Part shown: positions 3,232 through 43,662 of the stretch, in pieces
Layout: each line of letters opens with the position of its first letter
How positions within the stretch are numbered: the stretch's first letter is position 1
DNA from: Chrysochromulina tobinii
Lineage: Eukaryota
Assembly: GCA_001275005.1 (NCBI GenBank)
Contig: JWZX01002781.1
Coordinates: 1 to 43,662 of the forward strand
Length of the DNA stretch: 43,662 nucleotides
Direction of reading: 5' to 3'
Program-made: the position numbers and the translations under genes
The notes under the pieces: generated by a model
The model's input: the letters and a program-made list of their open reading frames with translations, nothing else
What the model was told of the DNA's origin: nothing
The model's database searches: none

Positions 3232-3586
3232 TCAACACTCCCCCAGCATCATCGCCGCCACAATCTGCTTGGCGGCCGGATCCGTGAGCGTGGCCACCAG
3301 CTGCCCGAACTGCGCCTCGCCCAGCGCCGTCCCGAGCGTGCGCACCCAATGCGCCACGCGTACGGGTACGTTGATCGACCTCAGGTCCTCATCGTCCTCG
3401 TCGTCCTCGTCGTCCTCCTCGTCCTCCTCGTCCTCGCCGTCGTCCTCGTCCTCCTCGCCGCCTCCGCCGAGCGCGCCGGTGTCGGCGTAGGCTCGCGCCG
3501 CGGTGGTGGCGGCAAACTCCTCTTGGCTCATGAAGGGCGAAGGACGTCGCGCGCCTTGCTGAGCGCTCGCCTCGACGCGATCTTCA

Positions 3587-3621
<35 letters not shown>

Positions 3622-4706
3622 ATCCTCGTCCTCGTCCTCGTCACCTGCGTCGCCTTGTCCCCGGACGAGCTGCCCGTCCGCTCGGTACGAGTCCGAGCCC
3701 GCATGCGCCAGCACAGCCCGGGCCGCCGAAGCGGCGAGGGCGAAGACACGAACGAGCAACGGCACTACCGGCCTCGCGCCGTGTTGAGCAGAGGATGGTG
3801 CCTGGCGCTCGCGCCGTGTTGAGCTGCGCAGCTGGCGGGGTGCGTGCGGATCTGCGGGCGGTGCGGCGCTGGGCACTGGCAGCTGGCACACCGCCGGGAA
3901 CGCAGGCGAGGCGAGCTCGAGCAGCGCAGCAAGGAGAGCCTTCGCCTCATATGGATGGAGCACCTGATGAGGGAGGCTATCGGAGGCACTCAGTGGCACT
4001 CGGAGGCACTCGGTGGCACGTAGAGGCACTCCGCGGCACTCAGAGGCACTCCGAGGAAATCGGTTCGCGTACATCCGGCGCCGTCTCAATCCAAGCACTG
4101 AGCACGAGCGACAACGCGCCGTCATGGGCACCCTCATGGGCGCCCTCGTGGGCGCCGAGCCGTTGGAGCGCATCGACGAGCATTCCACAGCCGAGAGGGG
4201 GCGGCGCGAGCGCTATCCTGGCGAGGACGACTAGAATGGCATGGCGCAGGCCCATGCGCGATGCCGACCGCAGCCATCGCACGAGCGCCCACAACAGCGC
4301 GTCGGCACGCTCGGCGAAGGCGCTCGGGGCGTGACGAACGAGGACGCCGAGTAACGGCACGCCACCGCTCGCCACCGCCGCCTCGGTGAGCTCGCCTCGG
4401 AGATTGCGGAGCGCCGTGTCGAGCCAGTGCATGCGGAGCGTCGTGCCGTCAGCCAGCGCGCCGTGTCGTGCAAAGTAGCCGAGGCACAAGCAGCCCTCGC
4501 GCAATACGGATGGCTGCGTCGCGTGGCTCACGACGGTTAACAGTGCGGGCAGCACTTCGGTGCATGCCGCCCGAGGCAACGCGTGAGTTCGGGGCCAGCG
4601 GCGGAGCAGCACGGTGTGTAGCAGCTCGAGAGCGGGCATGAGGGCTTCGTGGGAACTTGCATTCACATCGTCCCCCACCGTCCCCATATCATGCGACCCA
4701 TCCTCA

Positions 4707-4774
<68 letters not shown>

Positions 4775-7552
4775 TCCGGCCGCAGCGTGCATCCCTCCGG
4801 CAGCACTCACCGCCCCGCCGGCTGCCGCGTCCGCTGCGGCCGCCGCCTGGTCGAGTTGCATCTGGAGCTGCGGCACGTGAAGGAGCCATCAGTCGCACTC
4901 AGTCGCAATCAGTCGCACTCAGTCGCACTCAGTCGCACTCACCTGGAGCACGTGGAGGAGCACGGGAAGCAGGCGCTCCACCAGCCCAGGCATGGCCTCG
5001 AGCTGCGAGGCCATCGGCTTGATCGCATCCACCACCGCGTCACCCACAAGGGGGGATGTGCCCGAGACGGCGCCGCGCCCGAGCGAGTTGGACCAGAGCT
5101 GTAACAGCTGCGGCGTGAGCCACGGCTCCGCGGCGGCCGCCGCGTGAGCGTCGCGGCGCAGCAGACTCCCCACAGTGCGCAGGGCGCATAGCGTCGCCTC
5201 TTCGCCCTCTCGCAGCGCGAGGAGCGCCGTCGTGGGCACCAAACAGTCCAGCACGAGCGCCGTAGTGGTCGCCGCGCCCCCTGGCAGACGTTCACACCCC
5301 TCTGGAAGCTGTTCACACACCGTCTGGAGCGCGCCTGCATGGACCGCAATCAGGCGCACTCAGACGCACTCGGAGGCACCCGTCGAACGCAATCAGAGGT
5401 CATCAGAGGCCATCAGAGGTCCTCAGAGGCGATCAGTCGCAATCAGAGCCCATCAGCGCACCGCACGCGACCAGGCGCAGCTGAGTGCCCCACTGTGGCT
5501 CTAGTGCCGCGCGGATTGCTCCCACCAACTTAGCCAACGCCTCTCGCGGCAGCGAAGCCGCATAGCGCGCCGCCGCGCACAGGGTTCGTGCCCGGAGCAG
5601 CGGAGGCGTGTCGGGGTTCGTCAGATCGTGTCCCCACAGCTCCTCGAACGCATGTGCGGCGCTGAAGACGGCGGCGCGCCCGTTGGAGAGAGCCTTTTTG
5701 TTCGCCTGCGCCAAGTGGGACGCACCAAGCTCGAGTGCGAGGCAGGCAGCCTCTCGCAGCCGCCACCAGTGCGGCGCACCCGCTGTTCGGTTCGCATGCG
5801 CTTGGCTCAAGCGTGCGCCGATGGCGTGCAGGAGCGCCGTCGCGGCGCTCGCCGGGGCGGCGTCGAGCAGCTGCTCGAGCGCTTGGCGCACCTGCCATTA
5901 GGCGCAATCAGGCGTAATCAGGCGCAATCAGGCGTAATCAGGCGCAATCAGGCGCATGCAGACTCATACAGCAGCATTCATCTAGGGCGCTCGATGTCAT
6001 CAAAGGTCATCAGAGGGTCATCGTAGAATTCATCAGAGGTCTTCACGGCGCAATCCACACCAATCAGGGGAGCTGCTCACGGCCACGCGAGTGGAGACGG
6101 CGAATGACTCCGAGTCCTCATGTTGAAGGTACGCGTCCACATCTTCGCTCCACTCCTCCTCTTGTGCAGGCGTGATCGGGAGCAGCCCAATGCACCTGCA
6201 TGCAAACGCATGCCAACGCATCCTCAGACGCAATCCAGACGCAATCAGATGGGCTCAAGACGCCCTCAGACGCCCTCAGACGCCTTCAGAAGCACTCAGA
6301 CGCCCTCACAAGCACTCAGAAGCACGCAGAAGCACTCAGAAGCACTCAGATGCACATGTGGAAGAGGTCGGGCAATGCCGGCGTGAGTAGCCTGTGGAAC
6401 GTCGATGAATCCGCAAGCGCACTGAACACGTCGAGTAGCTCCGCCGCCAGAGCATCCGCGCCCTCCGTCTCTCCGTCCGAATCGTACCGCGACGGCGCGT
6501 TCCAAAGGCCCATCGCGCCGCCAGGCTCCGTCGCCTCGAGCGTGCGCTCATGCAGCCGGACGGCTCGCAGCAGCTGTGCGCCGAGCGGAGGCAATATGGC
6601 TTCCTTATTAGGCAGGAGCGCACGTGGGAGCATCTGGATGAAGAGTCGCAACAGGCGAACGAGCGCCACCTGCAGCGCGCAGCTCTCACCGTCCGCACCC
6701 TCTGCGCCCGCCACAGCGCCCGCCACGCCCGCCACGCCCGCGACGCCCGCCACGCCCGCCGGCGCGTCTGCACAGCCCGCGAGCGCCTCGAGGATGAGTG
6801 ACGCCCACACAGCCAACGGCCCCTTTTGGAGCTTGCGCAGGACCGGGTCGTCGTCGGCGCAGAGCATGGTGAGCCGTTCGAGCAGCTTATGCACCACCTG
6901 ATGAGGGGGGGGGCAGTCCGGTAGGCGCTCACGGGGGCGTTCCAAACACGCCATCAGCGCCCCTCAGTTGCGAGCACACCCGCACGGTACGCGCTCGGTC
7001 CTTGGGCCTTGCCGTTGGCGAGGCGACTACTGGGGCGAGCAGCGGCGAAAGCACATCGAGCGTCTCGATCAGCTGAGCCTGATCAAGCTCGCCGGCGCAG
7101 AGCTCGAGGCAGCGCAGGACGCCTGCGGCTGCCTCCGACGAGCCCTCGCCGCCCGCGCTCGCCGCGCTCTGGAGCCGTTGGATGAGCTCTTGCACCATCC
7201 CAGGCCACTCGTCGGGAAAGTCGTGCTGCGCAATGGCGGCCACGACCATGGAGACGGCGGTGCGGATCTTGCCGGATCGGTCGGCGAGGCACGTGGGCAG
7301 CGCGCCTCGGATCGCCGCCTTCTCTGCGTCAGGTACGATGCCTCGCATCCACTGGGAGCGCACAAGCCGCTTCAGGATCAGGCCGGATAGCTGGCGCACC
7401 GGCAAGGGCTGAGCCGAATCGACAAGGATACTCGCGAGGCAGAGCGCAAATCCGGGTGTGCCCTGCAGCGCGTCGAGCCCAGCCTCGGCCGCACGCGGAT
7501 CGAGCTGCATCTGGCCGAGGTGGTGCAACACCACCGCGTGAAGGTCAGACAT
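3232..7552 (-). CDS. IPO9: Importin-9-like karyopherin, 7 exons: 7552-6980, 6897-6356, 6195-6081, 5891-5462, 5334-4943, 4867-4073, 3963-3232 (about 1192 aa)
   Basis: IBN_N-like VRQLSGLILKRLVRSQW; AIAQHDFPDEWPGMV; EEEWSEDVDAYLQHED; WWRLREAACLAL; acidic C-terminal loop; all six GT-AG junctions keep frame (3579 nt). Confidence 0.85.
3964..4072 (-). other. Importin-9 intron 6 (109 nt, phase 0) with GAGTGCC-core decamers
   Basis: GAT|GTACGC ... CCCTCATCAG|GTG joins ETAPD to VLHPYEAK. Confidence 0.8.
4868..4942 (-). other. Importin-9 intron 5 (75 nt, phase 0), GAGTGCGACT x5; alternative in-frame acceptor at 4862
   Basis: CAG|GTGAGT ... GCCGCAG|CTC; its removal eliminates an in-frame stop. Confidence 0.8.
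5335..5461 (-). other. Importin-9 intron 4 (127 nt, phase 1) with degenerate decamer repeats
   Basis: G|GTGCGC ... CATGCAG|GC gives VACGALQTVC. Confidence 0.75.
5892..6080 (-). other. Importin-9 intron 3 (189 nt, phase 0) containing a (TGATT(G/A)CGCC)n decamer array
   Basis: GCC|GTGAGC ... CTAATGGCAG|GTG; CTAAT branch-like motif. Confidence 0.8.
6196..6355 (-). other. Importin-9 intron 2 (160 nt, phase 2), built of about 10-nt TCTGAGTGCT / TCTGAGGGCG units
   Basis: AT|GTGCAT ... GCATGCAG|GTGCATT restores LFHMCIGLL. Confidence 0.8.
6898..6979 (-). other. Importin-9 intron 1 (82 nt, phase 0)
   Basis: CGG|GTGTGC ... CCCCCTCATCAG|GTG joins ARTVR to VVHKLL. Confidence 0.75.
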
Positions 7553-7817: not shown

Positions 7818-7971
7818 ATGATGGCATGCTTGTCCGTGTACGCGCTCGCCCTGGCGATGTCGCGCTCCCTCCCACTGCGTGGCGGGACGTGCGTCGCCAC
7901 ACGGGGCAGTGTGCTTCATATGAATGCCGTCGCGGAGGCCACTCGTACCGATCTGCGCAACATTGCGATTG

Positions 7972-8002
<31 letters not shown>

Positions 8003-10168
8003 TGTGGATGCGATGCTCAAATCGGCGAACATCAAGGGAGACGATACGTTTTTGGACAGCAACGCTCAGGAGCGTGAACGTGGCATTACCATTCTTGCAA
8101 AGAATGCGGCGCTCACATGGAATGGCGTCAAGGTCAACATCGTCGACACTCCTGGCCACGCCGACTTTGGCGGCGAGGTGGAGCGTGTGCTCGGCATGGT
8201 GGACGCCGTGCTGCTGCTTGTGGATGCGGCGGAGGGCCCGAAACCGCAGACGCGCTTCGTGCTCAAAAAGGCGCTTGCCATGGGCCACAAGGTGCTTGTC
8301 GTCGTTAACAAGATCGACAAGCCTGCTGCGCGTCCTGACTACGTGCTCGACAAGACCTTCGACCTCTTCTGCGAGCTGGGCGCTACGGACGAGCAGACCG
8401 ACTTCCCTGTGGTGTACACGTCGGCGATCAACAAGGTCGCTGGCCACGAACCGAATGCGATCGGCACGGACATGTCGGCCCTCTTCGACAAGATCATGAC
8501 GCTCCCGAAACCCAAGGTGGCGAACGACAAGCCTCTCCAGCTCCAGATCTCGAACATCGGCTCGGACCCGTTCATCGGGCGGCTGGGCATCGGACGCATC
8601 ACCGCGGGCAAGCTGGTCAAGAACACGCCCATCGGCCTCTCTGCGGGCCCTGGCGCGAAGGTTCGCCAGGTCAAGGTCTCCGAGCTCTTCAACTTCCAGT
8701 CGGCTGGCCGCGTGCCGATTGAGAGCGCCTCCGCGGGCGAGATTGTCGTCTTCTCGGGCGTGCCCGACTTCAACATCGGTGACACGATCGTCGACCTGGC
8801 CAACCCGATGCCACTCGAGCCCATCGAGGTCGAGCAGCCCACGATGTCGATCACTATGGGTGTGAACAAGTCTCCATTCGCGGGTCGTTCGGGTGCCAAA
8901 TACCTGACGGGGCGCAACATCCGCGATCGGCTGATGAAGGAGCTCGAGACGAACGTGGCGATGCGCGTCGAGGACACCGACGACGGCGATACGGTGCTCG
9001 TCTCTGGGCGTGGGTTGCTCCATTTGACCGTGCTGATCGAGAACATGCGGCGGGAGAGCTTCGAGCTCATGGTTGGCCCTCCGATGGTGATTGAGAAGAC
9101 CGAGAATGGCGAGCGCCTCGAGCCGTTTGAGCTGGTGGGCAGATTGAAGGCAGATTGAAGGCAGATTGAAGGCAGATTGAAGCCAGATTGAAGCCAGATT
9201 GAAGCCAGATTGAAGCCGTTTGAGCCGTTTGGTGGGCAGATTGAAGGCAGATTGAAGGCAGATTGAATGCTGCCTCGAATCTCCTCTGAGGGCCGCGGAG
9301 GGCTGCTGATGGCCACTGATGGCCGCTGAGAGTGCTGCTGTGATTGCTTCGGCAGGTGGACATCGAGCTGCCCGCGGAATACGCCTCGGCCGCGATCTCC
9401 CTGCTCAACGAGCGCAAGGGCAACATGATCGACATGACCGCGGTGACCAAGGAGGGAGGGCAGGTGAAATACTGAACGAGTTGCCCTGAGTGCCCCCTAA
9501 TTGGCCTTAATTAAATGCAATTGCCATACCTGCCTCGACTGCAGGTGATCCAATTCGAGGTGCCTGCCCGTGGCATGTCGGGCGTCAAGTCCAAGCTGCT
9601 CTCTGCGACACGCGGTCTCGCCGTGATGAGCTCCACCTTCGCGGGCTACAAGCCGTACGCGGGTGACTTCGGGCAGCGCCAGAAGGGCAATCTGCTCTCG
9701 GCCGAGGCGGGCACCGCCACCGCGTATGCGATGCACAAGCTCGAGGACCGCGGCGCCTTCTTCTCCAGCCCCGGCGATGAGGTGTACGAGAACCAGATTG
9801 TCGGCGTCAACGCCAAGTCGGGCGATCTCAAGGCAAACATCTGCAGGTGATGAGCACTGATTGCATTCGGATTGCATTCAGATTGCATTCAGATTGCATT
9901 CTGAGTGCCTCTGATTGACTCTTGAGTGGCTCTGAGTGCCTCTGAGTGCCTCTGAGTGCCTCTGAGCGTCTCGCTCATCAGGGCGAAGGCGCTGACGAAC
10001 ATGCGCTCGGCCGGCGCGGATGAAAAGTCGACCACCTCGACCCCGCTGCAACTCACTCTTGAGGATGCAGTCGAGTACGTCATCGACGGCGAGTACGTCG
10101 AGGTGACGCCCGACGCGATCCGCATGGGCATGGCGCCCAAGATGAACAAGTTTGGCCAGAAGGTGTGA
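7818..10168 (+). CDS. typA: TypA/BipA translational GTPase, probably plastid-targeted; exons 7818-9134, 9356-9463, 9545-9846, 9982-10168 (about 637 aa)
   Basis: [81 protein letters not shown]; hydrophobic leader followed by a transit-like segment; junctions keep frame (1914 nt). Confidence 0.95.
9135..9355 (+). other. TypA intron 1 (221 nt, phase 0) with an 11-nt (G/C)CAGATTGAAG array
   Basis: CTG|GTGGGC ... TTCGGCAG|GTG joins LEPFEL to VDIELP. Confidence 0.85.
9464..9544 (+). other. TypA intron 2 (81 nt, phase 0)
   Basis: CAG|GTGAAA ... CTAAT ... CTGCAG|GTG. Confidence 0.85.
9847..9981 (+). other. TypA intron 3 (135 nt, phase 2) with GATTGCATTC(A/G) and CTGAGTGCCT arrays
   Basis: AG|GTGATG ... 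GCTCATCAG|G gives [12 protein letters not shown]. Confidence 0.85.
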
Positions 10169-10795
10169 ACAGTTGTTTTGGTACAGTGCGAGCGAGGCGG
10201 GCGATCCCCGCCAGAGCAAGCTCGACAGCAGCATCCACGGCGTTCTGCACCTCCGTCACCTGCGTAATAGCTGCTGGGACTCGCCTGCAGTGGATCCGTG
10301 GGAGAACCGTGCGTGTTCTCACTGGACACTGCGGCGCGCGCTGAGCGCTGAGCGTTGAGCTGCGAGAGAGTTTGCGGTGTGCGGTGAACTGAACGCGCAC
10401 AAATGTGACGGGGCGTTGTGCATGTGTTGTGCGTTATGGGATCGTGCGCTGTATCGAGTACCGTCGGGTAGTTACTTGTCTGAACTGTGTCCAGTGCGAG
10501 CGCCAAAGAGCCCCGAAGACGAGCGGAACGCGGCGCCTCTCCTGAGAGATGCCTCCTGAGAAACGAGTTGCATGGCCGCGGAGCGGCCGCGGCGCGCCTG
10601 AAAGCTCGGAAAATATTCGATTTGCGCAATTTGGACGCGGCCGCGCCGGGGGCTGTCGGGTCACGTGTGAACGGGACGGGTGCGTCTGTGGTCTGACGTA
10701 TGTTAGAGAAAAGCACATCTATCAATACCTCGCGCAGGCACGAGAATCAGATTCCACCGTGGTCCAGACAGAATCTCTCACTTACCACGGCATGC

Positions 10796-24045: not shown

Positions 24046-24531
24046 GACTCTCTGTTTCGGGGTTCGCGGGTGTTCTGCGAGCGAGGAATCACACGGGTTG
24101 CGGCACCGGCACCGCGTACTATGACCAGCTCTTAAAAGGCGGCCACATACATGTACTAGTAGATTCACGTCGGAAGGATGCGCAGAATCTATACAAAACG
24201 AGCACATGCATGCAAATCACGGCCGCGACGTCGTAGTGACCATCGCCAGCCGCGACGTAGTTGTGACCAAATTCTCCCAAATTTCAAGTCCGTGTTCAAG
24301 TTCTCCCGTTGTCTGTGGAGCGGCGGCGTTCGTGATGCATGCTGTCAGACACCTCACCTCTCATTCACAAGTGGCAAGCGAAGCGGCATTGCCCGAGCGT
24401 CAAACAGCGTGCTGTGGGGAAAGATTGGTATTACTCGTCAGTGATGCATGCAAGGTTTCGACGACCGTCTTCAAACGCCAAATGGGAAGCCAATACCTTC
24501 TCCCTCGCCACGCGTGTCATAGGTGACCCTG

Positions 24532-26156
24532 ATGCCGTCCCTTGCCACGCGTGTCCTAGGTGAAATGTTGTCGCCTATGCGGAGCCTGAGCTTCCGCCGG
24601 CGAGGCGACAACATCCCGCAGCGCTCAGCGTGCTCGCCAGCGTGTGGCAGCACGCAGAACTGCACCGCTACTGCAGCGTCGCGTTCACCCGCGACACCAG
24701 CCGCCGCCAGCAGCAGCGTTGAGCGCTGGTCGAGCCCAGAGTCGGTCTCGACGCGGCCGCGACGCTTCGATGCTGCAAACAAAGCCCCCGTGCAGGAGCG
24801 CAGCACGCGCGTGTACCAAGAGCGACGGCTGGTGCGCACGGATGACTTAAAGGCCGCCGACTTGAGTCTTTGGCTCCAGCACTGCCGACGTGAGAATGGT
24901 CTGCATAAAGAGCACCTCGAGGCCATCTCGAGACGTATGTATCGAGATGGGCTAGCTCGCAAAGGCGACACCCTGAACGCTGCCGACATGGGTAGTTGGT
25001 TCGAGCACATCCAACGAGAGAACCGTCTGCATAAGGAGCATCTCGAAGCGATCTCGAGACGCATGCATCGAGATGGCCTCATGACCCGCTCCGAGCTGGA
25101 GCGTTGGCTCGAGGGCCCCGAAGAGAATCTGGCGGTGCTCAGCCCCGCGGCTCGCAGTCTGCTCAAGCAACGGCAAGCAGCTACCTCGCCGCACGAGCGG
25201 AGATCACGGGCAGATTCCCCGCCCGAGATGAGAAGAGAGGAGACCACTGAGGAGACCACAGGCGCTGTATTGGGCACTTCCTCGTCCGAGATGAGAAGAG
25301 AGGAGACCGCAGGCGCAGCATCGCCAGGATCATCCTCATCCGCACCACAGCGGCTGCTGCCAGCTGAGTCGCGGCCGTGGCACAATCGTGCCCGCGAGGG
25401 GCTGCGAGATTGTAGAGATCGGACGCACTTGCTGTCGCCACCGATACCAATGCCGCAGCTGCAACTCGGCCAATCGCCCTTGGCATTACCTCCGCCGGCG
25501 CGGCTGCCGCGTCCCCGTGCCGACATCCACTCTCCCGTCACTCCCGCTCCCTTCCACAGCCCCGCTCCTTTCGACCACGACACGGACCAGCACACCAGAG
25601 AGGAGGCCGAGCAAGAGAGATCCTTCTTGCGCGCGCGGCCGCTCGAGGGCGGCGCACTCGTTGCGGCGCGCGTGCGCCTCGGCATCGTCCTCAGACGTCC
25701 ACCGCCCTCGGGCCTCGGCCATGCATTCAAACAGGCGCTCGAACGCGCCGTGGCCGAGGAGCTGAGCGCTCGCGTGCTGCATGCACAGGCTTGTGCAGAC
25801 CAGGACGATGGCACAGATGCGGAGCAGGAGGCTGATAGCCGCGGCACGACAGCCCGCAGCAGCTCAAGCAGCAGCTCCAGCAGCAGCGCCGTACGTGGCG
25901 CGCGCAACCCTCCAAACGTGATCGTGCGCATGAGTGCAAGCGAAGCGCCTGTGCGAGTGCCGACCTTGCACGTGCCCAAGTTGGCCCCCTCGCCCCCCGT
26001 GGCCCCATCGTCGCCGTCCTCTCCGCCGTCCTCTCCGCCGTCCTCTCCGCCGTCCTCTCCGCCGCCAACAGACGAGGAGGCGGAAAGCGCTCACGAGGCC
26101 TCGAGCGGTGTGGCAGCCCAGCAGTACAACAGCGCATGCGGCAGCGGCAGCGGCAG

Positions 26157-26202
<46 letters not shown>

Positions 26203-29200
26203 AGCGGCGCCGACGCACCCGCCACGGCCATCGCCACGTGGCTCGACGTGTGCATCGAAATCGTCGTGGACGCGTCATGCTGGGCGTGGGGATCGGTGCG
26301 ACATCTGGAGGACGAGATGATCGAGCTCGCATCTCCCGCGAGGACGGGAGATTGGTGGCACGCGGCGCTTCACCGGTGCGCCAGTCAAGAGTGCGAGCTG
26401 CACGTTCTGAAGCTCGAGGCACTCCGAAGATTTCGATCCGCGGAAGACGTCGCTGCGGCGCTGCAGGGGATGCAGTCGCGCAGCACGCTGCCGCCGCTCA
26501 CGCTGCCCCTGGCGCTGCCGTCCCCCTCGCCTTCCTCGGTTCCATGGCTGTCGGAGCTACGGACCGCCGTCGATCGTGCAGAGCAGGCCGTGAATGGGGC
26601 CGTGAACGCTCTGGACGGTTGGTTGAGCATCAAGAATGAGGAGGAGGATGCCACGATGAGACTGCTAGAGGAAGGCGACGGCAGTGGTAACCTCTCGCCG
26701 CCCAGAACGCTCATTCGTGTTACTGCCATCGCCCCTGCTGCTGCCGCCCCTGCTGCTGCCGCCCCTGCTGCTTCCGCCCCTGCTGCCGCCCCTGCTGCAG
26801 CCGCCGCCTCGTCGTCCAGCTCCGCAGCCATACACACCAGGGCCACTCTTACGCGCAACTCGGCCGGCCGTTTCGGCGTCTCCTTTCACTCTCCCGGCGA
26901 CGGCACCATTCGGCTCGAACACATCTCAGACGCGCACGACGTGGACGATGAGCGAAAGCTGCTGTGCGTGGGCGACATCGTGCTCTCGATTAACGGGATC
27001 CCGCTCGAGACACCTCGCGAGTCCAAGACAGAGAGCGAGGAGGCGTTTCTCCTCCTGATCGCCCATTCAGGCCAGCACGTGGTGCTACACGTGTGTCGCC
27101 CGAGTGCGACGGTCCCGCGGGAGCTCTCACGGGCCTCCACCGCCATTCCCCTCAAGCTTTGGCGTGGTGCGGCGGATGGTACAGATGATGACGTTGTGGC
27201 TGAAGCCGCCTCAGCTTCCTCTTCCTCAGCCCCTTCGACCGCCGCTGCAACGCTCGAGCCACGAGCGTCGTCGTGGGCGCGCGACTCGCTCACCGTGCGC
27301 GTGCTCGTGGGGGAGCTCTCTACGCGTGTTGAGAGGACTCAGACGTATCACACGCGTCTTCTGGAGCAGCTGGCTCAGTTGTCGTTGATGCTGCAGCTCG
27401 AGCGGCGGGAACGCGAGCTGCTCGAGCTGCTCGAGCGGCGTGAATCCATGGCGGAGCATCGGCACGAGCAGGCGCAGCCGCACACGGCGAGGGACACCCT
27501 GGCGGCGTGGTGCAACGCATGTAGCGACAGCTGGCGCGATCGGCAGCACCTGTGGTTCGCGCGGGCATATGGGAGGGTTCTGCTCGAGACGACGCTCTGG
27601 CGGACGATGTTGGAGGTGAGGTGGGCCATGTTGAAGCTGCAACTGACGCACGCGAGCCTCGAGTGCAATGCAGCCGCCTCAGCTGCCTATGCAGCCACCT
27701 TTGGCCGTGCCGTCGAGGCCATGGGAACCGGCGTCACCTCGAGTGCGAGCTCGATCGGGCGCTGTATCGAGCATATCGCCCACTCGGCCGCCAACGGCTG
27801 CCACATGTATCTCGCCAATGAGCTCGAGCGGCTGGAGCAGCTCGAGACGACGCGGCCGGAGCAGCTCACAGCGGACTCGAGCGCTGGAGCCAGCACAGTT
27901 TGGCGTCAACGTGCGCGCTTCGACCTCCGGGCGGCTGCGACTCGGCGCAAGCTCGATCGGATGCGGTGGTGGGTGCGCTGGCTGCTGCTGCTGCTGCTAC
28001 GAAGTGTGCAGCTGCTGCTCCTTTGCGTTCGTTGCTTGCTCGCCCTACTCTCGCCCCGCGCCTTGATGATTGAGATGCTCATCATCATGGGCTTCGTCGC
28101 CTCGTCGCCTACTACACTGGGGGTCCTGGGCGCAGGGCAGCAGGGCGTCCGAGCAGACGGGCAGGGTTTCCAGAGTGTCGGCCAAAACGTCGGCCACGGC
28201 ATTCAGCAAAGCGTCCAAACTGTCGGCCAGGGCCTGCACACGGTCAGCGGCGCAGTGGGACAGGGGTTTGGGGCGCTCGGTGCACTTGTGAGCAATGCGG
28301 CGGCCGTCTACGTCTTGCAAATTAGCCCGCCTCCGACGCCTTCCCCATTACCATCTTCTTCACCCCTCTCGCCCCGGCTGACCCTGCCGCCGCCGCAGGC
28401 GCCACCTCCGCCACCTTACCCGTCACCGACACATCTGTCTCATTTGAAGCCCTCACCACCCATGCACCCAGCACTTCTGGCAGTTGCCTGGCATACGGTG
28501 GACAGTCTGGGCCTACATAAGGGTCTTACGACCTCATCACCGCCGCCCCTTCCGTTGCCGCCCTCGAAGCCTCCCCTTCAATCTTCGCCACCACCTGCTC
28601 GGTCTTCGCGGCCACCATCCCTAATGCCGCTGCCGCTGCCGCTGCCGCCACGACCGCCGCATTCGCCCTCGCCGCCGCCGCCGTCCCCTTCTGCTGAATC
28701 ATCTCCCCCTCCTTCCTCACCGCCACCGCACCCGCCATCACCCTCGCCGCCGCCACCCTCGCCGCCGCCGCCACCCTCGCCGCCTCCCAGGCCGCCGCCG
28801 CCCTCGCCCTCACCCTCGCCGCCCTATCGGCGTCATACTCCAGTCTTCGAGATTGAAGGGCCCATCAAGCTCGATGGCCACAGTTGCCTTTATCAGGAGA
28901 AGGGCACGCATGCGGCGTTACCTCTCGGACGCACGCCGTATACCATCGAGGCCTGGATACGACCCGCCGCCTCGGGCAATCCGTACGGAGGCATTGTGGG
29001 CTGGGGCGAGTACGGCATCCTGCATGGCGCCAACGCTCTCCGGATGGACGGATACCATTCGGTGGCTTCTTATTACTGGGGCGACGACCTGCACGTGTAC
29101 CCCCACAGTGACGCATTGATCAACCTCATCGACGGCGAATGGCACCACGTCGCCACCACCTTCGACGGTGCGTGGCGGCAGCTCTTTATAGACTTCAAGC

Positions 29201-32200
29201 TTGTTGGCACCAAGGCGTCCGCCGGCCCTACGGAACTTATCTCCAAGGAGAATTTCTGCATCGGGCGCACCTCCACTTCCGAATTCTTCCACGGGGCCAT
29301 CCGCGGCGTGCGCATCTACGACGAGCTCATCGTGCTCATGGCGAACGAATTCTCGCCCTCGCCGCCGCCGCCGCCTCTTCCTCCGTCGTGGCACCGGTTC
29401 TTTGGCACCCATCCGCGAGCGCCACCTCCGCCACCCCACCCATCGCCGCCTCCGCCACCTTCGCCACCTCTACCATCCCCCCCTCCACCGTCACCTCCGC
29501 CGCCGACCCTTCCGCCGCCGTCACCACCACCACCATCGCCTCCACCTCCATCGCCCCCGTTGCCCCTGCCTCCGCATGCGCCACCTCCGCCACCTTACCC
29601 GTCGCCACCACATCCTTCCCCTTTGCCGCCCTCGCCGCCCATGCACCCAGCACTCCTGGCAGTTGCCTGGCATACGGTGGACGCTGGTCTGGGCCTTGCT
29701 TCACTTGCGGCCCTCATCAAGCTGGTGACGGCAGTTGCGTCGGGTCTGATCGCCGCGTGCACGCTCTTGCTCGCGTTCTATGTCTTACTCGGGGCCTTGT
29801 ATGAAAGTGCCTTGTGGCTGTGCGAGCAAATACAATCGTGGCTGCCACAGCCCTCGGACAACGAGTCGCACGAGCTGCTGGTCGAGGACAAGGAGATGGA
29901 CGGCAACAGACTGGCCGACGTGTCCCTGCTGGCCATGGAGCTCAACGCTCATGACGACAGCGTCGAGGTAGAGTCGCCAAAGCGGGGCTTCCTGCCACGG
30001 GCTGAGCTCGAGAGTCCGTCACGGAGATGGGGACTGACAGAGGAACCACCGCTCCGCTCGCCGCTCCCGGCGACCCTCTCTGCTGACGTGCCCTTCGGGC
30101 TGCTGAAGCCAGTTGCGCACCGCCCTTCATACGTGTCGTATGCAGCCACAGGGGAGATCGTGGCGCCGACACTGGCACAGCTGTCTCGATTACCGCCACC
30201 ACCGCCAGCAACGCCGGAGCCGGTCGTGATCGATCCATGGCTAACCGCGACAGACGAGGCCACTGGCGACACATACTACTACAGGGAGTACAGTGGGGAG
30301 TCGCAGTGGGAACCGCCGTGGCGCTTGCCACTAGGGCTCGTCGTGCTCGCATTTGGCGCAACTGAGGAAGGCGAGCTGAGCGTGGCTGTGGGCATGCAGG
30401 TGACGGTACTTGCCGCGGAGGACGATTGGCTCTATGTGGAAGATCAAGGGCGGCGCGAGGGCATGGTCCCGGCTGCATGCGTGCGCCTGCTGCCAGATGG
30501 TGCTGCCGAGCCATCGCCGACGATTGAGCGCACTCGTCTGGCACTGCCCAATTTTGCTGGGTACACCGCTGACGAAACGAGGCGTGAGGCGCCGCCCTTC
30601 GCACAGCTCCGCCTCCTGCGCGAGTCCTTGGACGCTGCCTTAAGCCCCTCGGGGTTGGACGACACAACAGCAGGGCTCGCTCCGGAGCCTTCGGACGGAG
30701 CTGACTTCGAAACGGGCGGACGGGGGCGCAGCGCACAGAAGCCGCCCACGGTGTACATCACGGAGCCGGAGATGGAGCCGGTGCTGATGCAGACGCCTCA
30801 GCCGGAGCCCACCCCGGAGCAGCACGAGCCGACGCCGGAGCTAAAGCCGGAACCGTCTGCAACGGCTGCTTCCCCGGCCACCCATCCGTCTCAGGATATG
30901 TCTCAGGAGGAGGCTCCGATTCCGTCAGCACCTTCATCAGCCCCGGCTTCCCAGTATATGTCTCAGGAGGCTTCGATTCCGTCAGCACCTTCATCAGCCC
31001 CGGCACCTGCATCAGCCCCGGCTGTCGCCGTCGAGCCGATAACGATCGTGCGCACGAGGCCCTTGGTGCCTCCTCTCGTGATCCCTGCCGTACAGGCAGC
31101 TAAGGCAAAGGCTGCGCAGGAGGATGCAGCCGCAGCGGCGAGCGCGCTGGGGGAGGCGGAGCTGGCCGCTTCGGACGCTGCCGAGGTGGCGGCGGCTGAA
31201 GCGCAGGCGGTGGCGTTGGCGGACGGCGAGGGTAGCATGGCTCATTGGGCGGCCGTTACGATGGCCAACACGGCCGGTGCCGTGCATGCGAGCCTTTTGG
31301 GATGGTTCCATTCCATCCAATCGATGGCGACGCCGCCACCGCTACCGCCAGCTGGATGGGAACGTCTGCCAGACGAGGAGGGGGGCGTCGTGTTGGGCGT
31401 CGAGCATGCTCGGGCTGCTGGGTCTGTCGGGTCTGCTGGGTCTGCTGGGTCTGCTGGGTCTGCTGGGTCTGCTGGGGCAGATCGGCCGTCTGACAATCCC
31501 TACGCCGTGCTCTATTGGTGTGAGGGCAGGCCGTTACCGCGTCCCAGCACCCACCTTCTTGCCCGCTGCCGCGGCGTCGCTCACACTCGCGCCCAGGGGG
31601 CTGAGGCAGCCAATGTACACGCGCCCACGTCGGGCGGAGTTGCGAGGAGCCCACCGAAGATGGTTCCGAAGGTGAAGACGATCGCCATCTCGCCTCGCAG
31701 CGCCGGCAGCGGCGGTGGCGAGTGCTTCAACGCAGCGCGTGCTAGGCTGCAAGCTCCGCGCCGAGGCAGCTCCGCGACCCTGATCAACGCGACGCCGAGA
31801 GCAGCCACGGCACGTGAGCACATGTTCGAATTCAAGCCGCCGCCTCCGGTGCCGATGGTGCAGTCGGCACGCCCATCGTTGAACCCGGCCACCGAGCGCA
31901 CGCTGCAACGCCGGGACTCACTCCGACGCCTGTCCGCCTTGCAGCCGGTGAGCCGTCTCGGCGGCCATTGGAAGGCTCGTCCCCGCGACGTGCCCTCATC
32001 CGCCCTCTCTACCCCACGCGTTGCCCCTCCCCCCGGCTCGACCCCTCGGGACGACGCTCGGTACGACGCTCGGTCCGGCTCTACCTCGCACCGAGCCAGC
32101 CTCTCGCCTGCTCCCAGCCAAAGCCTCTCGCCACCCACGGCACCCTCCGAGGAGATGGACGTGGGAGCAGCGAGCCCTGCTCAGGTTGGGTTGGACGCCA

Positions 32201-32991
32201 GAGGTCAGACGAGTAGCCATCGCGCGGGATGCGTGGGTGCTAGAGATGAGACGTCGAGCCTCGGCAAGGGGATCGAGTTGGGCAGAGCCGAACCTGGCAG
32301 GCGAGAGGAGCCAAGCGGCCTGGACTCCCCGCGCGCTGATTGGTCGATACGCACCCCACCGACCGAACGCTCTCTCCTCTCCCCTCCCGACCGAACTGGT
32401 CCTCCCCTCACGCAAACGGGCATGGAGCCATCGCCCAGACTCGAGCTCCTCAGCGAGGAGCCATCCCAAGAGTGTGGAACTGACAAACCTTCGCCGATGG
32501 AGCCATCGCCCAGATTCGAGCTCCTCATCGAGGAGCCATCCCAAGAGTGTGGAACTGACAAACCTTCGCCGATGGAGCCATCGCCCAGATTCGAGCTCCT
32601 CATCGAGGAGCCATCCCAAGAGTGTGGAACTGACGAACCTTCGCCGACCCTATCATCGACCCATTCGCCGAACCTATCGCCAAATCTATCGCCGACCCTG
32701 TCACGGGCGAAACCATTCGCTTCATTGCGGCCCAAGTCTCCCTTCACACCTCCACGGCGTGAACGGCGTGAGGTAGTGCCACCATTCCAAGCACCATTCA
32801 TGGAGGTCCATCCGCTGGCATTGCCGAATCACGCTCGGGACGACGCGCCCGATGACGTGGAGAATGCACGAGGCGCGTGGCGGCAGAGGAGAATGCACGA
32901 GGCGAGAGCGCAATTTGCTGCGAAGCAGAAGGCGCGAGCAACAGCAGCAGGCCAAGGCTCTAGGCGCGACGAGGCGTTTCTGAACGCATGA
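24532..32991 (+). CDS. Giant intronless multidomain membrane protein: PDZ, TM, Pro-rich, LamG/concanavalin-like, Pro-rich, TM, WW, SH3
   Basis: About 2820 uninterrupted codons; PDZ about 26839-27102 (GRFGVSF...VGDIVLSINGIPL); LamG about 28843-29340 (YTIEAWIRP...DGEWHHVATTFDG...FFHGAIRGVRIYD); WW about 30229-30318; SH3 about 30334-30492. Confidence 0.85.
32422..32646 (+). repeat. In-frame 75-bp tandem repeat x3 (MEPSPRxELLxEEPSQECGTDxPSP)
   Basis: Near-identical DNA units. Confidence 0.9.
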
Positions 32992-41486: not shown

Positions 41487-43662
41487 TCACTCAAACTGGA
41501 CGCGCGCGTGCAGATGCCGCGCCGCGGCGGCGTCGCCCGGGCGCGCGCCAACGTACCGATGCGCGTACACCATGCGCGGGTGCTGCCGGCGCACGGCGAC
41601 AGCCTGCCCCCCGCCCGCGCCCGTGAGCCGGCGCGGCAGCCAGCGAAGCTCGGGCATCGTATGGTTGGCGGCCGTCGGCTCCCAGAGCGGCGACGCGTCC
41701 CGGTAGGCTCCAAAGCGCGGGTGGACTGTCTGGCCGTAAAAGTCGGAGCCGCGCCGCTTGAGCCACTCGCCCACCGCGTCGCTCAGCCTCGCGCCCACGC
41801 CGAAGCCCTGGAACTCGGGCAGCACGACTGTGCGGTGCGCGCGCTGTGGCCGATCGGTCGCCTCGCTCGTCGGCTTGCCTGAGTGAGGGATGGTCGCCAA
41901 TCAAAGAGGCAATCAATGGTCATCAGCGACGCTCGCAACGGCTTGCCTGAGTGAGGGATGGTCGCCACGAACCCCGCGGGCACGTACACGCTCGCCTCGT
42001 CCTCCGCGTCGTGGCGAGCGTCCTCCGCGTCGCGAGCCACCGCCTCGGCGTCGTGGTGAGCGTCCTCCGCGTCCGCCGCCGCGGTTCCCGCCCGTGTCAC
42101 CGCCGCCTCCGCCCTCCCGCCGAGCGCCACGCGCGCCTCGAGCAGGCAGGTCGATGCGACCGTTGAGAGCTGCGCCGTCTTGTAGTGGTAGCTGTGGAAG
42201 CGCTGCCACTCGGCGGGTGCGCATGGGCGTAGCCGCAGGGCGAGCTGTGGAAAGGGGAGGCGCACGCTGCCGCCGTCGACGAGGCCGGTGGCGCCGGTGC
42301 TGGCGCCGGCGGCGGAGGGTTTGGCGGCGAGAGGGTCGCTGATGACCTTTGATTGCCTCTCGATTGCCTCTTGATTGCCTTTGTTGTCGTCGGAGGGATT
42401 GGCGGCGAGTGACGCTCGCGCGGCCGCCAGCGCTAGCCAACCACGCAAGCCCATCGCCTCGTGAGCCATCGCCTCGTGAGCCGTCGCCTCGTGAGCCGTC
42501 GCCTCGTCCATCGCCTCGTCCATCGCCTCGTGAGCCGTCGCGCCCGCTGCCGCGCCCGCTGCCGCCTTCTCCACGTCCCTCGTCGCCTCCGCCTCGGTTT
42601 CGGCGCCCTCCGCCTCAGCGCCCTCCGCCCGTGTAGCTGCCGTCGGCTGGAGCCAGAAGCACGTGGCCGAGCCCGCCTCAAAGATCCAATCGGGCTCGAG
42701 GGCACCGCGCGCCACGTGCTCAATGTGGCAGCCCGCGAGCACCACCCCGGCGCATCGCAGCAGCGACGGCCGCGCAGCCGCCCCACCAGCGCCCACGACG
42801 GCGCCGCCGGAGCCGCCGGGCTGAGCTTGAGCGGTCGAGGCCCGCAGCGCGCCGCTGAGCGCGCGGCTGATGCGCAGCGTCGTGTCGCCATCCCACGCGG
42901 AGCCAAACTCGTCAAAGAGGGCGAGCCGCGCGCCTGATCGCTCGTCGTCCCCCGCCTCGTCCCCGTCCCCTTTGGCCGGCTCGGCCGCGCCGATCTCCAA
43001 GGCCAGCAGCGCCTGGGCACGCTCGCCGCTCGAGCACGCGCCGTACCGCCACGCGAGCGCCGACGGCAGCGGCGCGGCCACCGCACGCAGGCAGCGCGCC
43101 GCTTGCTCGGAGCTGCCAAAGGCGTCGCTCAGTCGGCGAGCGCGCCGCCAGGCGGCGCTCAAGACGGCGCTCCCGTCGAGGGCGGCTCGACCGAATTGGG
43201 CAGCGAGCAGTGCGGACTTGGCCGCGCCCGACGGGCCGGTCAGCACACCAAGGCGGAAGGGGCCGAGCGCGTCGCGGCTCGGGAAGGGCGGCAGCCGGCG
43301 CGCGCAGGTGCCGTCGCTCGGCAGGTCGAAGAAGGTCTCGACGATGCGCGTCGCCTCGGTCGCCTCGACGTGCGCCGCGAGCACGCGCCCGCCCCGCGGC
43401 GGCGGCGCGCACGCGTCGTGCTGAGCGGGAGGCGTGACGTCGTGGCAGAGGGCATCAGAGACCATCAAAGGCACTCAGGGGTACTACTCAGAAGTCATCA
43501 GTGCTCATCACCTGGAAGGGAGGCGCGTCGTCGTAGCAGCGCTGGGAGAGCACCCGTAGGCCACACCGGCGGAGGCTCGCGAGGAAGAGCTCGCCGCCGC
43601 GGGGGAGGTGCGATGGGGGGAGGTGCGATGGGGGGAGGTGCGATGGCGGGAGGTGCGATGGG
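41487..43662 (-). CDS. ABC-type ATPase fused to a GNAT acetyltransferase, 5' end outside the window; exons >43662-43512, 43420-41947, 41878-41487
   Basis: Walker A-like LTGPSGAAKS, signature-like SSGE, Walker B LFDEFGS, H-loop LAGCH...LEPDWIF; WQRFHSYHY; acetyl-CoA motif RTVVLPEFQGFGVG...TVHP. Confidence 0.8.
41879..41946 (-). other. GC-AG intron (68 nt, phase 1) bounded by a perfect 29-bp direct repeat
   Basis: CAG|GCAAGC ... CCCTCACTCAG|GCAAGC; removal joins the 41783-43474 and 41487-41900 ORFs. Confidence 0.8.
43421..43511 (-). other. GT-AG intron (91 nt, phase 0) in the ABC-GNAT gene
   Basis: CAG|GTGATGAGCACTGAT ... CCCGCTCAG|CAC; upstream frame stays open to the window edge. Confidence 0.7.
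43602..43662 (-). repeat. 15-bp tandem repeat (PSHLP x4), probably coding
   Basis: GGGAGGTGCGATGG(G/C) units on the plus strand. Confidence 0.8.

What the first reader, a model, noticed from the sequence alone, without database searches (positions are those of the whole stretch)
9844..9982. TypA intron 3 has terminal inverted repeats and shares an 18-nt donor region with an unrelated gene
Seen: the intron reads G-TGATGAGC ... GCTCATCA-G, an 8-bp perfect inverted repeat just inside the terminal G bases. CAGGTGATGAGCACTGAT (9844-9861) recurs exactly at 43514-43497 in the ABC-GNAT gene. Importin introns 1 and 6 also end in CTCATCAG. Known: introner elements in Micromonas and Aureococcus are short intron families derived from non-autonomous DNA transposons. 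Inference: this may be an introner-like family whose interiors are rewritten by repeat expansion.
Basis: partly seen in the sequence, partly recalled or inferred. Interest (0 to 1): 0.75.

Follow-up and report, generated by a model that had tools for sequence, protein, structure and literature searches.

The report
Modular algal intron, not inverted-repeat transposon
This is a real spliced intron in a haptophyte alga whose matching ends are most likely a chance pairing of two stock end-pieces reused by many of its introns, and those introns often contain copies of their own neighbouring exon, in one family a copy matching another gene's exon, which likely points to introns built by DNA copying rather than by a transposon.

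Summary
The intron is real (9847-9981, 135 nt, skipped in three RNA runs), and the 8-bp inverted repeat and shared 18-mer are exact. The inverted repeat is not a family trait. In 65 curated introns from this alga and close strains, 16 end in the same acceptor octamer. Only 1 of 4 with the same donor octamer does, and 4 of 15 with the 7-nt donor (against 12 of 50 others; P=1). Inverted ends of 6 nt or more number 4, with 4.3 expected from random pairing. Neither importin intron has a matching start, and one TypA allele breaks the repeat. Confirmed parts: donor and acceptor pieces are shared between unrelated genes, interior repeat counts vary between strains, and the position looks absent in relatives. 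Also found: 41 of 65 introns carry a copy of their own flanking exon, and an 85-nt unit ending in a bromodomain gene's exon end recurs in introns of three other genes. Best reading: modular introns likely made or remodelled by microhomology-guided copying. This intron alone folds into a rod hairpin (best of 56), unexplained. The scan noted the flank-copy footprint before on another piece of this genome.

The parts
7818..10170 (+). TypA/BipA gene of a haptophyte (likely plastid-targeted), 4 exons: 7818-9134, 9356-9463, 9545-9846, 9982-10170
   Evidence: open 638-codon frame; homologues from Haptolina 81% and Prymnesium 72%; RNA contigs
9847..9981 (+). TypA intron 3, 135 nt, GT..AG; folds as one rod hairpin in prediction
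   Evidence: RNA skip in 3 of 3 RNA runs laid; fold -63.3 kcal/mol, z -5.6
9847..9864 (+). shared donor arm: first 18 nt identical to introns in L008 and L010, first 15 nt to the second-site intron
9848..9855 (+). 5' arm of the 8-bp inverted repeat; also a common interior repeat word
9859..9908 (+). 11-mer array, near-palindromic unit; copy number differs between strains
9900..9966 (+). 10-mer array; predicted to pair with the 11-mer array through G-U pairs; copy number differs between strains
9964..9981 (+). diverged copy (14 of 18 nt) of the commonest acceptor arm; holds the 3' arm of the inverted repeat (9973-9980)
9844..9847 (+). 4-nt junction direct repeat (second copy 9979-9982), equal to the cross-locus background of 4.0
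9135..9355 (+). TypA intron 1, 221 nt, holds an internal copy of its upstream exon end
   Evidence: RNA contig length arithmetic
9464..9544 (+). TypA intron 2, 81 nt, 8-nt junction repeat
43421..43511 (-). second-site intron (predicted, 91 nt): same donor arm, 3' end is a copy of about 25 nt of its own upstream exon end, no inverted repeat (3 nt)
   Evidence: not RNA-tested
41879..41946 (-). second predicted intron of that gene (GC donor, 68 nt) with a 29-nt exact junction repeat
   Evidence: not RNA-tested
6898..6979 (-). importin intron 1 (predicted): acceptor arm, no matching start
   Evidence: IBN_N domain upstream
3964..4072 (-). importin intron 6 (predicted): acceptor arm, no matching start; 14-21 contigs of run X9 share only 3960-3981

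Best explanation
TypA intron 3 is a spliced GT-AG intron made of a donor piece and an acceptor piece that other introns of this alga also carry, and its 8-bp inverted repeat is likely a chance meeting of those two pieces rather than a transposon end. Shown: the pieces are shared across unrelated genes and pair independently; the interior arrays gain and lose whole units; most introns here hold copies of their own flanking exon; one 85-nt unit is shared by four genes. Inferred: a stalled or broken DNA end anneals by a few matching bases to an existing intron elsewhere, copies its donor or acceptor piece, then switches back, often re-copying 10-40 nt of its own exon. That re-copied stretch supplies the other splice site. 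Slippage then changes the repeat number. Inferred: intron 3 received both pieces this way at a site empty in relatives. No transposase would be needed; the enzyme is not identified.
For: Acceptor octamer in 16 of 65 introns; in 1 of 4 with the donor octamer, and in 4 of 15 with the 7-nt donor versus 12 of 50 without (Fisher P=1). Inverted ends of 6 nt or more: 4 observed, 4.3 expected; 7 nt or more: 1 versus 1.09. The 5' word occurs 16 times inside 6 introns. Allele L065 has a change inside the 3' arm. Own-exon copies exceed the 99th percentile of 812 cross-locus pairs in 41 of 65 introns and 9 of 12 RNA-supported ones; exact junction repeats of 10 nt or more occur in 12 of 65 versus 0.25 expected. 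RNA joints in L008 show repeats of 2-29 nt. The 85-nt unit is 80-93% identical among L036, L071, L057 and L042, and its last 30 nt match the L036 exon end at 29, 25 and 25 positions (scores 17.5-27.5; maximum 13.5 in 3,578 control windows). L036, L071 and L057 are bromodomain, PARP and phosphatase genes. Eight ENA TypA proteins on 5-19 kb contigs run through all three intron sites; 39 of 44 PARP homologues align across the L071 site.
Against: A repeat of 8 nt is expected only 0.06 times in 65 (P=0.06), and the base giving the eighth pair is found in 0 of the 15 other octamer introns. Intron 3 is the strongest folder of 56, and end-to-end pairing persists in allele L065 (z -6.9). Intron 3 itself has no exon copy. 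No whole-intron presence/absence was seen in 12 strain pairs, so recent gain is not shown. One strain lacks a 90-nt junction-spanning segment of a compound intron (L044 versus L042), so exon copies can come and go in an existing intron. The exon-to-intron direction of the 30-nt piece was not established. 53 of 65 boundaries are predicted, and some were set using the duplication itself. The sample is 128.5 kb.
Confidence: 0.6

Rival explanations
1. Intron 3 is a decayed non-autonomous DNA transposon (TG...CA ends, 2-nt GG target duplication) of an introner family whose interiors were later overwritten by repeats.
For: Perfect 8-bp inverted repeat, and formal removal restores the mRNA exactly. 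Position appears lineage-specific. Introners are reported from a Chrysochromulina MAG (10.1101/2022.06.06.494994, Fig. 2C legend). The donor word and the reversed acceptor word share a hexamer, which could be a relic of an old founder.
Against: No coupling of ends. 3 of 4 introns with this donor and 15 of 16 with this acceptor lack the partner end. No end-to-end relative. Junction repeats run from 1 to 35 nt rather than a fixed length. The published Chrysochromulina family has no TIRs. No transposase domain among 15 frames scanned.
Confidence: 0.12
2. The introns are older than they look, and exon copies and shared pieces are later remodelling: tandem duplication across existing splice junctions plus ectopic gene conversion between repeat-rich introns, with no new introns made.
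For: Compound introns with tandem junction copies are common (L007, L008, L012, L071). L044 lacks a 90-nt junction-spanning segment present in L042. No presence/absence polymorphism in 12 strain pairs.
Against: TypA and PARP sites are uninterrupted in relatives called on long contigs. Simple introns made only of a donor arm plus their own exon-end copy (L092, L037, second site) would need an exact second deletion. The L071 and L057 introns consist wholly of the shared unit.
Confidence: 0.2
3. Intron 3 arose or is maintained as a fold-back: an inverted templated copy or selection for a stem that brings the splice sites together.
For: Rod hairpin, z -5.6, 0 of 200 shuffles as stable; best of 56 introns; 45-nt end duplex reached by 0.13% of cross pairs; all four departures from the consensus acceptor arm sit in predicted pairs.
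Against: Not general: z below -3 in 5 of 56 sense and 6 of 56 antisense strands. Own ends versus cross ends P=0.52, 0.09, 0.05. A chimera with another intron's 3' half folds equally well. The register changes in L065, and the mutation test gave P=0.02-0.23 depending on the assumed ancestor.
Confidence: 0.08

Closest known systems
Introners of Micromonas pusilla and Aureococcus (MITE-like, TSD + TIR; as summarised in PMC11282704, passages seen; the original report PMC5684705 was not held)
   Same: short introns sharing end sequence in unrelated genes; positions that look lineage-specific
   Different: no coupled TIRs, no fixed-length TSD, no end-to-end family for TypA intron 3; interiors are slippage arrays
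Chrysochromulina sp. MAG introner family 5 (10.1101/2022.06.06.494994, Fig. 2C legend and methods)
   Same: same lineage by inference; carries the 5' splice site, takes the 3' site from duplicated target, no TIR, like the donor-arm introns here
   Different: duplications here are variable and up to 30-40 nt rather than 4 nt; a mirror class carries the acceptor; the shared unit holds a copy matching another gene's exon; the supplementary family sequences were not seen
Break-repair neointrons of Daphnia pulex (PMC4202315, passages seen)
   Same: direct repeat of the adjacent exon end at the far intron end; internal repeats
   Different: Daphnia repeats are 4-12 bp, inserts AT-rich and polymorphic in populations; here repeats are longer, fillers are shared splice-signal arms, and no polymorphism was found
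Intron gain by tandem genomic duplication and by intron transposition or template switching (PMC3443670, passages seen)
   Same: a duplicated exon segment provides a splice site; introns homologous to other introns
   Different: here both occur in one intron: a local duplication plus a piece copied from a distant intron

Membership tests
TIR/MITE-type introner | terminal inverted repeats shared by family members | tested here: not met
   1 of 4 (donor octamer) and 4 of 15 versus 12 of 50; permutation 4 observed versus 4.3 expected
TIR/MITE-type introner | target-site duplication of fixed length | tested here: not met
   exact junction repeats 1-35 nt across 65 introns; intron 3 has 4, the background mean
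TIR/MITE-type introner | four or more introns similar at both ends in non-paralogous genes (criterion) | tested here: inconclusive
   intron 3 shares its 5' end with 3 introns and its 3' end with 15 others, none at both full ends; best global identity 0.69; only 128.5 kb sampled
TIR/MITE-type introner | position absent in relatives | tested here: met
   8 ENA proteins on 5-19 kb contigs run through the site; ENA calls read into introns elsewhere, so they look prokaryote-style; indirect, DNA not seen
TIR/MITE-type introner | autonomous element or transposase with the same ends | not testable with these tools
   no genome held; none among 15 frames scanned
TIR/MITE-type introner | presence/absence polymorphism or nucleosome-linker bias | tested here: inconclusive
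   no whole-intron polymorphism in 12 strain pairs; linker bias not tested
Introner without TIR (the 85-nt unit) | end-to-end similarity in four or more non-paralogous genes | tested here: inconclusive
   80-93% identity in 4 genes; it is the whole intron in L057, L044 and (in tandem) L071, but only the first segment in L036; low-complexity filter might exclude it; L042 gene family judged by eye
Break-repair / tandem-duplication intron | copy of adjacent exon end at or in the intron above background | tested here: met
   41 of 65 and 9 of 12 RNA-supported introns; not met for TypA intron 3 itself
Break-repair / tandem-duplication intron | excess in newly gained over old introns | not tested
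   intron ages unknown; PMC3443670 warns this control is needed

The most novel reading that the evidence does not exclude
This alga makes new introns without a transposon. Stock donor and acceptor arms are copied to new sites by microhomology, and a finished intron can then be copied whole: one born in a bromodomain gene carried 30 nt of that gene's exon into PARP, phosphatase and repeat-protein genes, leaving a readable source-to-target record of intron spread.
Probability: 0.35. Interest if true: 0.8.

Novelty: new variant of a known kind. Interest (0 to 1): 0.45.

Why it matters
Where new spliceosomal introns come from is a long-open question, and the source is usually unrecognisable. The inverted-repeat signal flagged here is not evidence of a transposon and warns against calling TIRs in repeat-rich introns. 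The surrounding pattern is more useful: introns that keep copies of their own exon ends, and one unit that appears to carry a tag of its source gene, would let source, target and order of copying be read directly once a full genome and several strains are compared. Such families may be missed by introner screens that drop low-complexity sequence.

Tried and rejected
No whole genome or record handle was available, so there is no genome-wide census. Three scans of viral contigs gave 2, 3 and 0 loci: the first two read as unrelated chance matches and the other three were not examined. The genome-contig scan gave 1 bacterial MAG locus, not used. Of 81 automatic intron calls, false, partial and split ones were removed, merged or re-bounded by hand to give 65; 9 introns over 260 nt were left out of the folding test. 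RNA cover of the importin gene was too thin to confirm its introns, and the second-site intron was not RNA-tested. The codon-likeness test for the 30-nt piece was inconclusive (0.05; true exons median 3.05, intron ends median -1.9), and the homologue search found only 6 close strains. Rfam gave one sub-threshold chance hit. A general end-to-end fold of these introns was rejected. Two searches for a paper on short repeats in Emiliania introns found nothing; that trait is recalled, not checked.

Full report
Observation. The 18-mer is exact at both places and has no match in 100 shuffles of the window. The intron is 9847-9981; removing it with introns 9135-9355 and 9464-9544 gives an open 638-codon TypA. 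RNA contigs of all three RNA runs laid skip it; for introns 1 and 2, two contigs leave exactly the 105 letters expected for the middle exon. The 8-bp inverted repeat is there. Homologues include Haptolina (81%) and Prymnesium (72%), so the DNA is haptophyte; 'Chrysochromulina-like' rests on that and on recall.

Data set. No genome is held. I kept 49 as haptophyte-like; they collapse to 14 intron-bearing genes and one stray copy. With the window this gave 128.5 kb of non-redundant DNA. A self-trained caller gave 81 calls, curated by hand to 65 introns. Twelve have RNA support: three in TypA and nine in L008, one of these with an acceptor ambiguous among tandem copies. Donors are enriched by the way loci were found; acceptors are not (13 of 51 non-ascertained introns end in the octamer).

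The inverted repeat is not a family feature. The acceptor octamer ends 16 of 65 introns, and 14-21 contigs of one DNA run share only the importin copy of it. It ends 1 of 4 introns with the donor octamer and 4 of 15 with the 7-nt donor, against 12 of 50 others (P=1). Random pairing of ends predicts 4.3 inverted repeats of 6 nt or more (4 seen) and 1.09 of 7 or more (1 seen). Eight or more is expected 0.06 times, because it needs a base private to this intron. The 5' octamer occurs 16 times inside 6 introns and its hexamer 115 times inside 33. The importin introns and the second-site intron each have one end only. Allele L065 has a substitution inside the 3' arm. Intron 3 has no end-to-end relative: best identity 0.69, cross-locus median 0.44.

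Donor arms are shared between unrelated genes (18 nt with L008 and L010). Interiors change by whole units: L065 has 11 and 20 extra bases in the two arrays, and similar indels occur in other strain pairs. The position looks lineage-specific: eight ENA TypA proteins on 5-19 kb contigs run through all three sites, while other ENA calls read into introns, which suggests intron-blind gene calling. This is indirect, since the DNA was not seen.

What else is there. Forty-one of 65 introns hold a copy of their own flanking exon above the 99th percentile of 812 cross-locus pairs, as do 9 of 12 RNA-supported ones; exact junction repeats of 10 nt or more occur 12 times against 0.25 expected. L008 was chosen for RNA after I had seen such copies in it, and some predicted boundaries were set with them, so the share may be inflated. 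Two mirror types recur: donor arm plus a copy of the upstream exon end as acceptor (second site, L092, L037), and a copy of the downstream exon start as donor plus the acceptor arm (L008, L012, L037). Intron 3 has both arms and no exon copy.

An 85-nt unit is 80-93% identical in L036, L071 (four tandem copies), L057 and L042/L044. Its last 30 nt match the exon end of L036 at 29, 25 and 25 positions, beyond all 3,578 control windows. L036, L071 and L057 encode bromodomain, PARP and phosphatase domains. Thirty-nine of 44 PARP homologues align across the L071 site, seven of them ENA proteins on contigs of 4.7 kb or more. That the 30 nt began as exon is inferred from the commonness of own-exon copying; two direct tests were inconclusive.

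Mechanism. Shown: shared arms, independent pairing, variable exon copies, a unit shared by four genes, unit-wise length change. Inferred: microhomology-guided template switching during repair or replication copies an arm from a distant intron and re-copies local exon, creating or remodelling an intron. The interior words resemble the branch-point motif (recalled consensus; present near 46 of 65 acceptors) and lie almost only on the sense strand, which would favour survival of such inserts. No whole intron was polymorphic in 12 strain pairs, and L044 lacks a 90-nt junction-spanning segment of L042, so later remodelling of existing introns is a live rival.

The hairpin. Intron 3 folds as one rod (z -5.6) and is the best folder of 56; L065 also folds strongly but in another register. 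The trait is not general, a chimera with another intron's 3' half folds as well, and the mutation test gave P=0.02-0.23. I read it as a likely by-product of a near-palindromic 11-mer meeting a common 10-mer, and leave it as unexplained residue.

Literature. Seen: 10.1101/2022.06.06.494994 (passages and parts 2-3 of 5), PMC11282704, PMC3443670, PMC4202315, PMC4580454, PMC8379373 and PMC12130899 (passages only). The first reports a TIR-less Chrysochromulina introner with a 4-bp TSD. Searches listed no paper whose title or abstract start describes exon-copy introns or shared arms in haptophytes; the library lacks most subscription papers, and supplements were not seen.

Verdict. Observation confirmed; TIR-introner membership tested and not met; the system around it is a variant of known intron-gain routes with one bold, untested extension. 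Interest 0.45.

Noticed in passing
L036:588-702; L071 intron (334-672, -); L057:5004-5088; L042/L044: 85-nt intron unit ending in a copy of the bromodomain gene's exon end, present in four genes; tandem four times in the PARP gene
   Followed up: yes
window 41879-41946 (-): predicted GC-AG intron with a 29-nt exact junction repeat in the same gene as the second site
   Followed up: partly
L007:5004, L092:304, L076:2016 (exon ends): three different genes share the same ten exon bases just before the same donor arm, suggesting microhomology or target choice; in L092 they encode a conserved-looking cysteine desulfurase motif (by eye)
   Followed up: no
L012:1981-2374: intron holding inverted copies of the acceptor arm with what looks like another gene's junction, so arms can be copied in reverse orientation
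   Followed up: no
L012:2809-2975 and 3492-3575: the start of one intron matches the exon start after another intron about 700 bases away: local templated copying
   Followed up: no
L077 group versus L030 group: L077 shares an exon fragment and the first bases of the donor arm with L030 but has unrelated flanks: a stray junction copy or an assembly artefact
   Followed up: no
P0125, P0126: these bromodomain calls read from the exon end straight into the second intron segment, as if the 85-nt unit were deleted between its 30-nt repeats or collapsed in assembly
   Followed up: no
window 9135-9355; P0001: a 99%-identical TypA call reads into intron 1 and its translation suggests the 11-mer array is absent in that strain
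   Followed up: partly
65-intron set: at least two further stock acceptor ends occur (8 and 4 of 65 introns), and interior repeat words are almost wholly sense-strand
   Followed up: partly
L012:8361-9243 and L010:2118-2989: 890-base segment 90% identical between two loci; a multi-copy gene with no Pfam hit
   Followed up: partly
window 24523-32991 (+): 2,822-codon open frame with laminin-G-like lectin and SH3 domains and no predicted intron
   Followed up: no
P0080, P0081, P0084, P0088, P0089: another haptophyte's TypA calls break about one codon upstream of this gene's intron 1, suggesting a separate nearby intron
   Followed up: no
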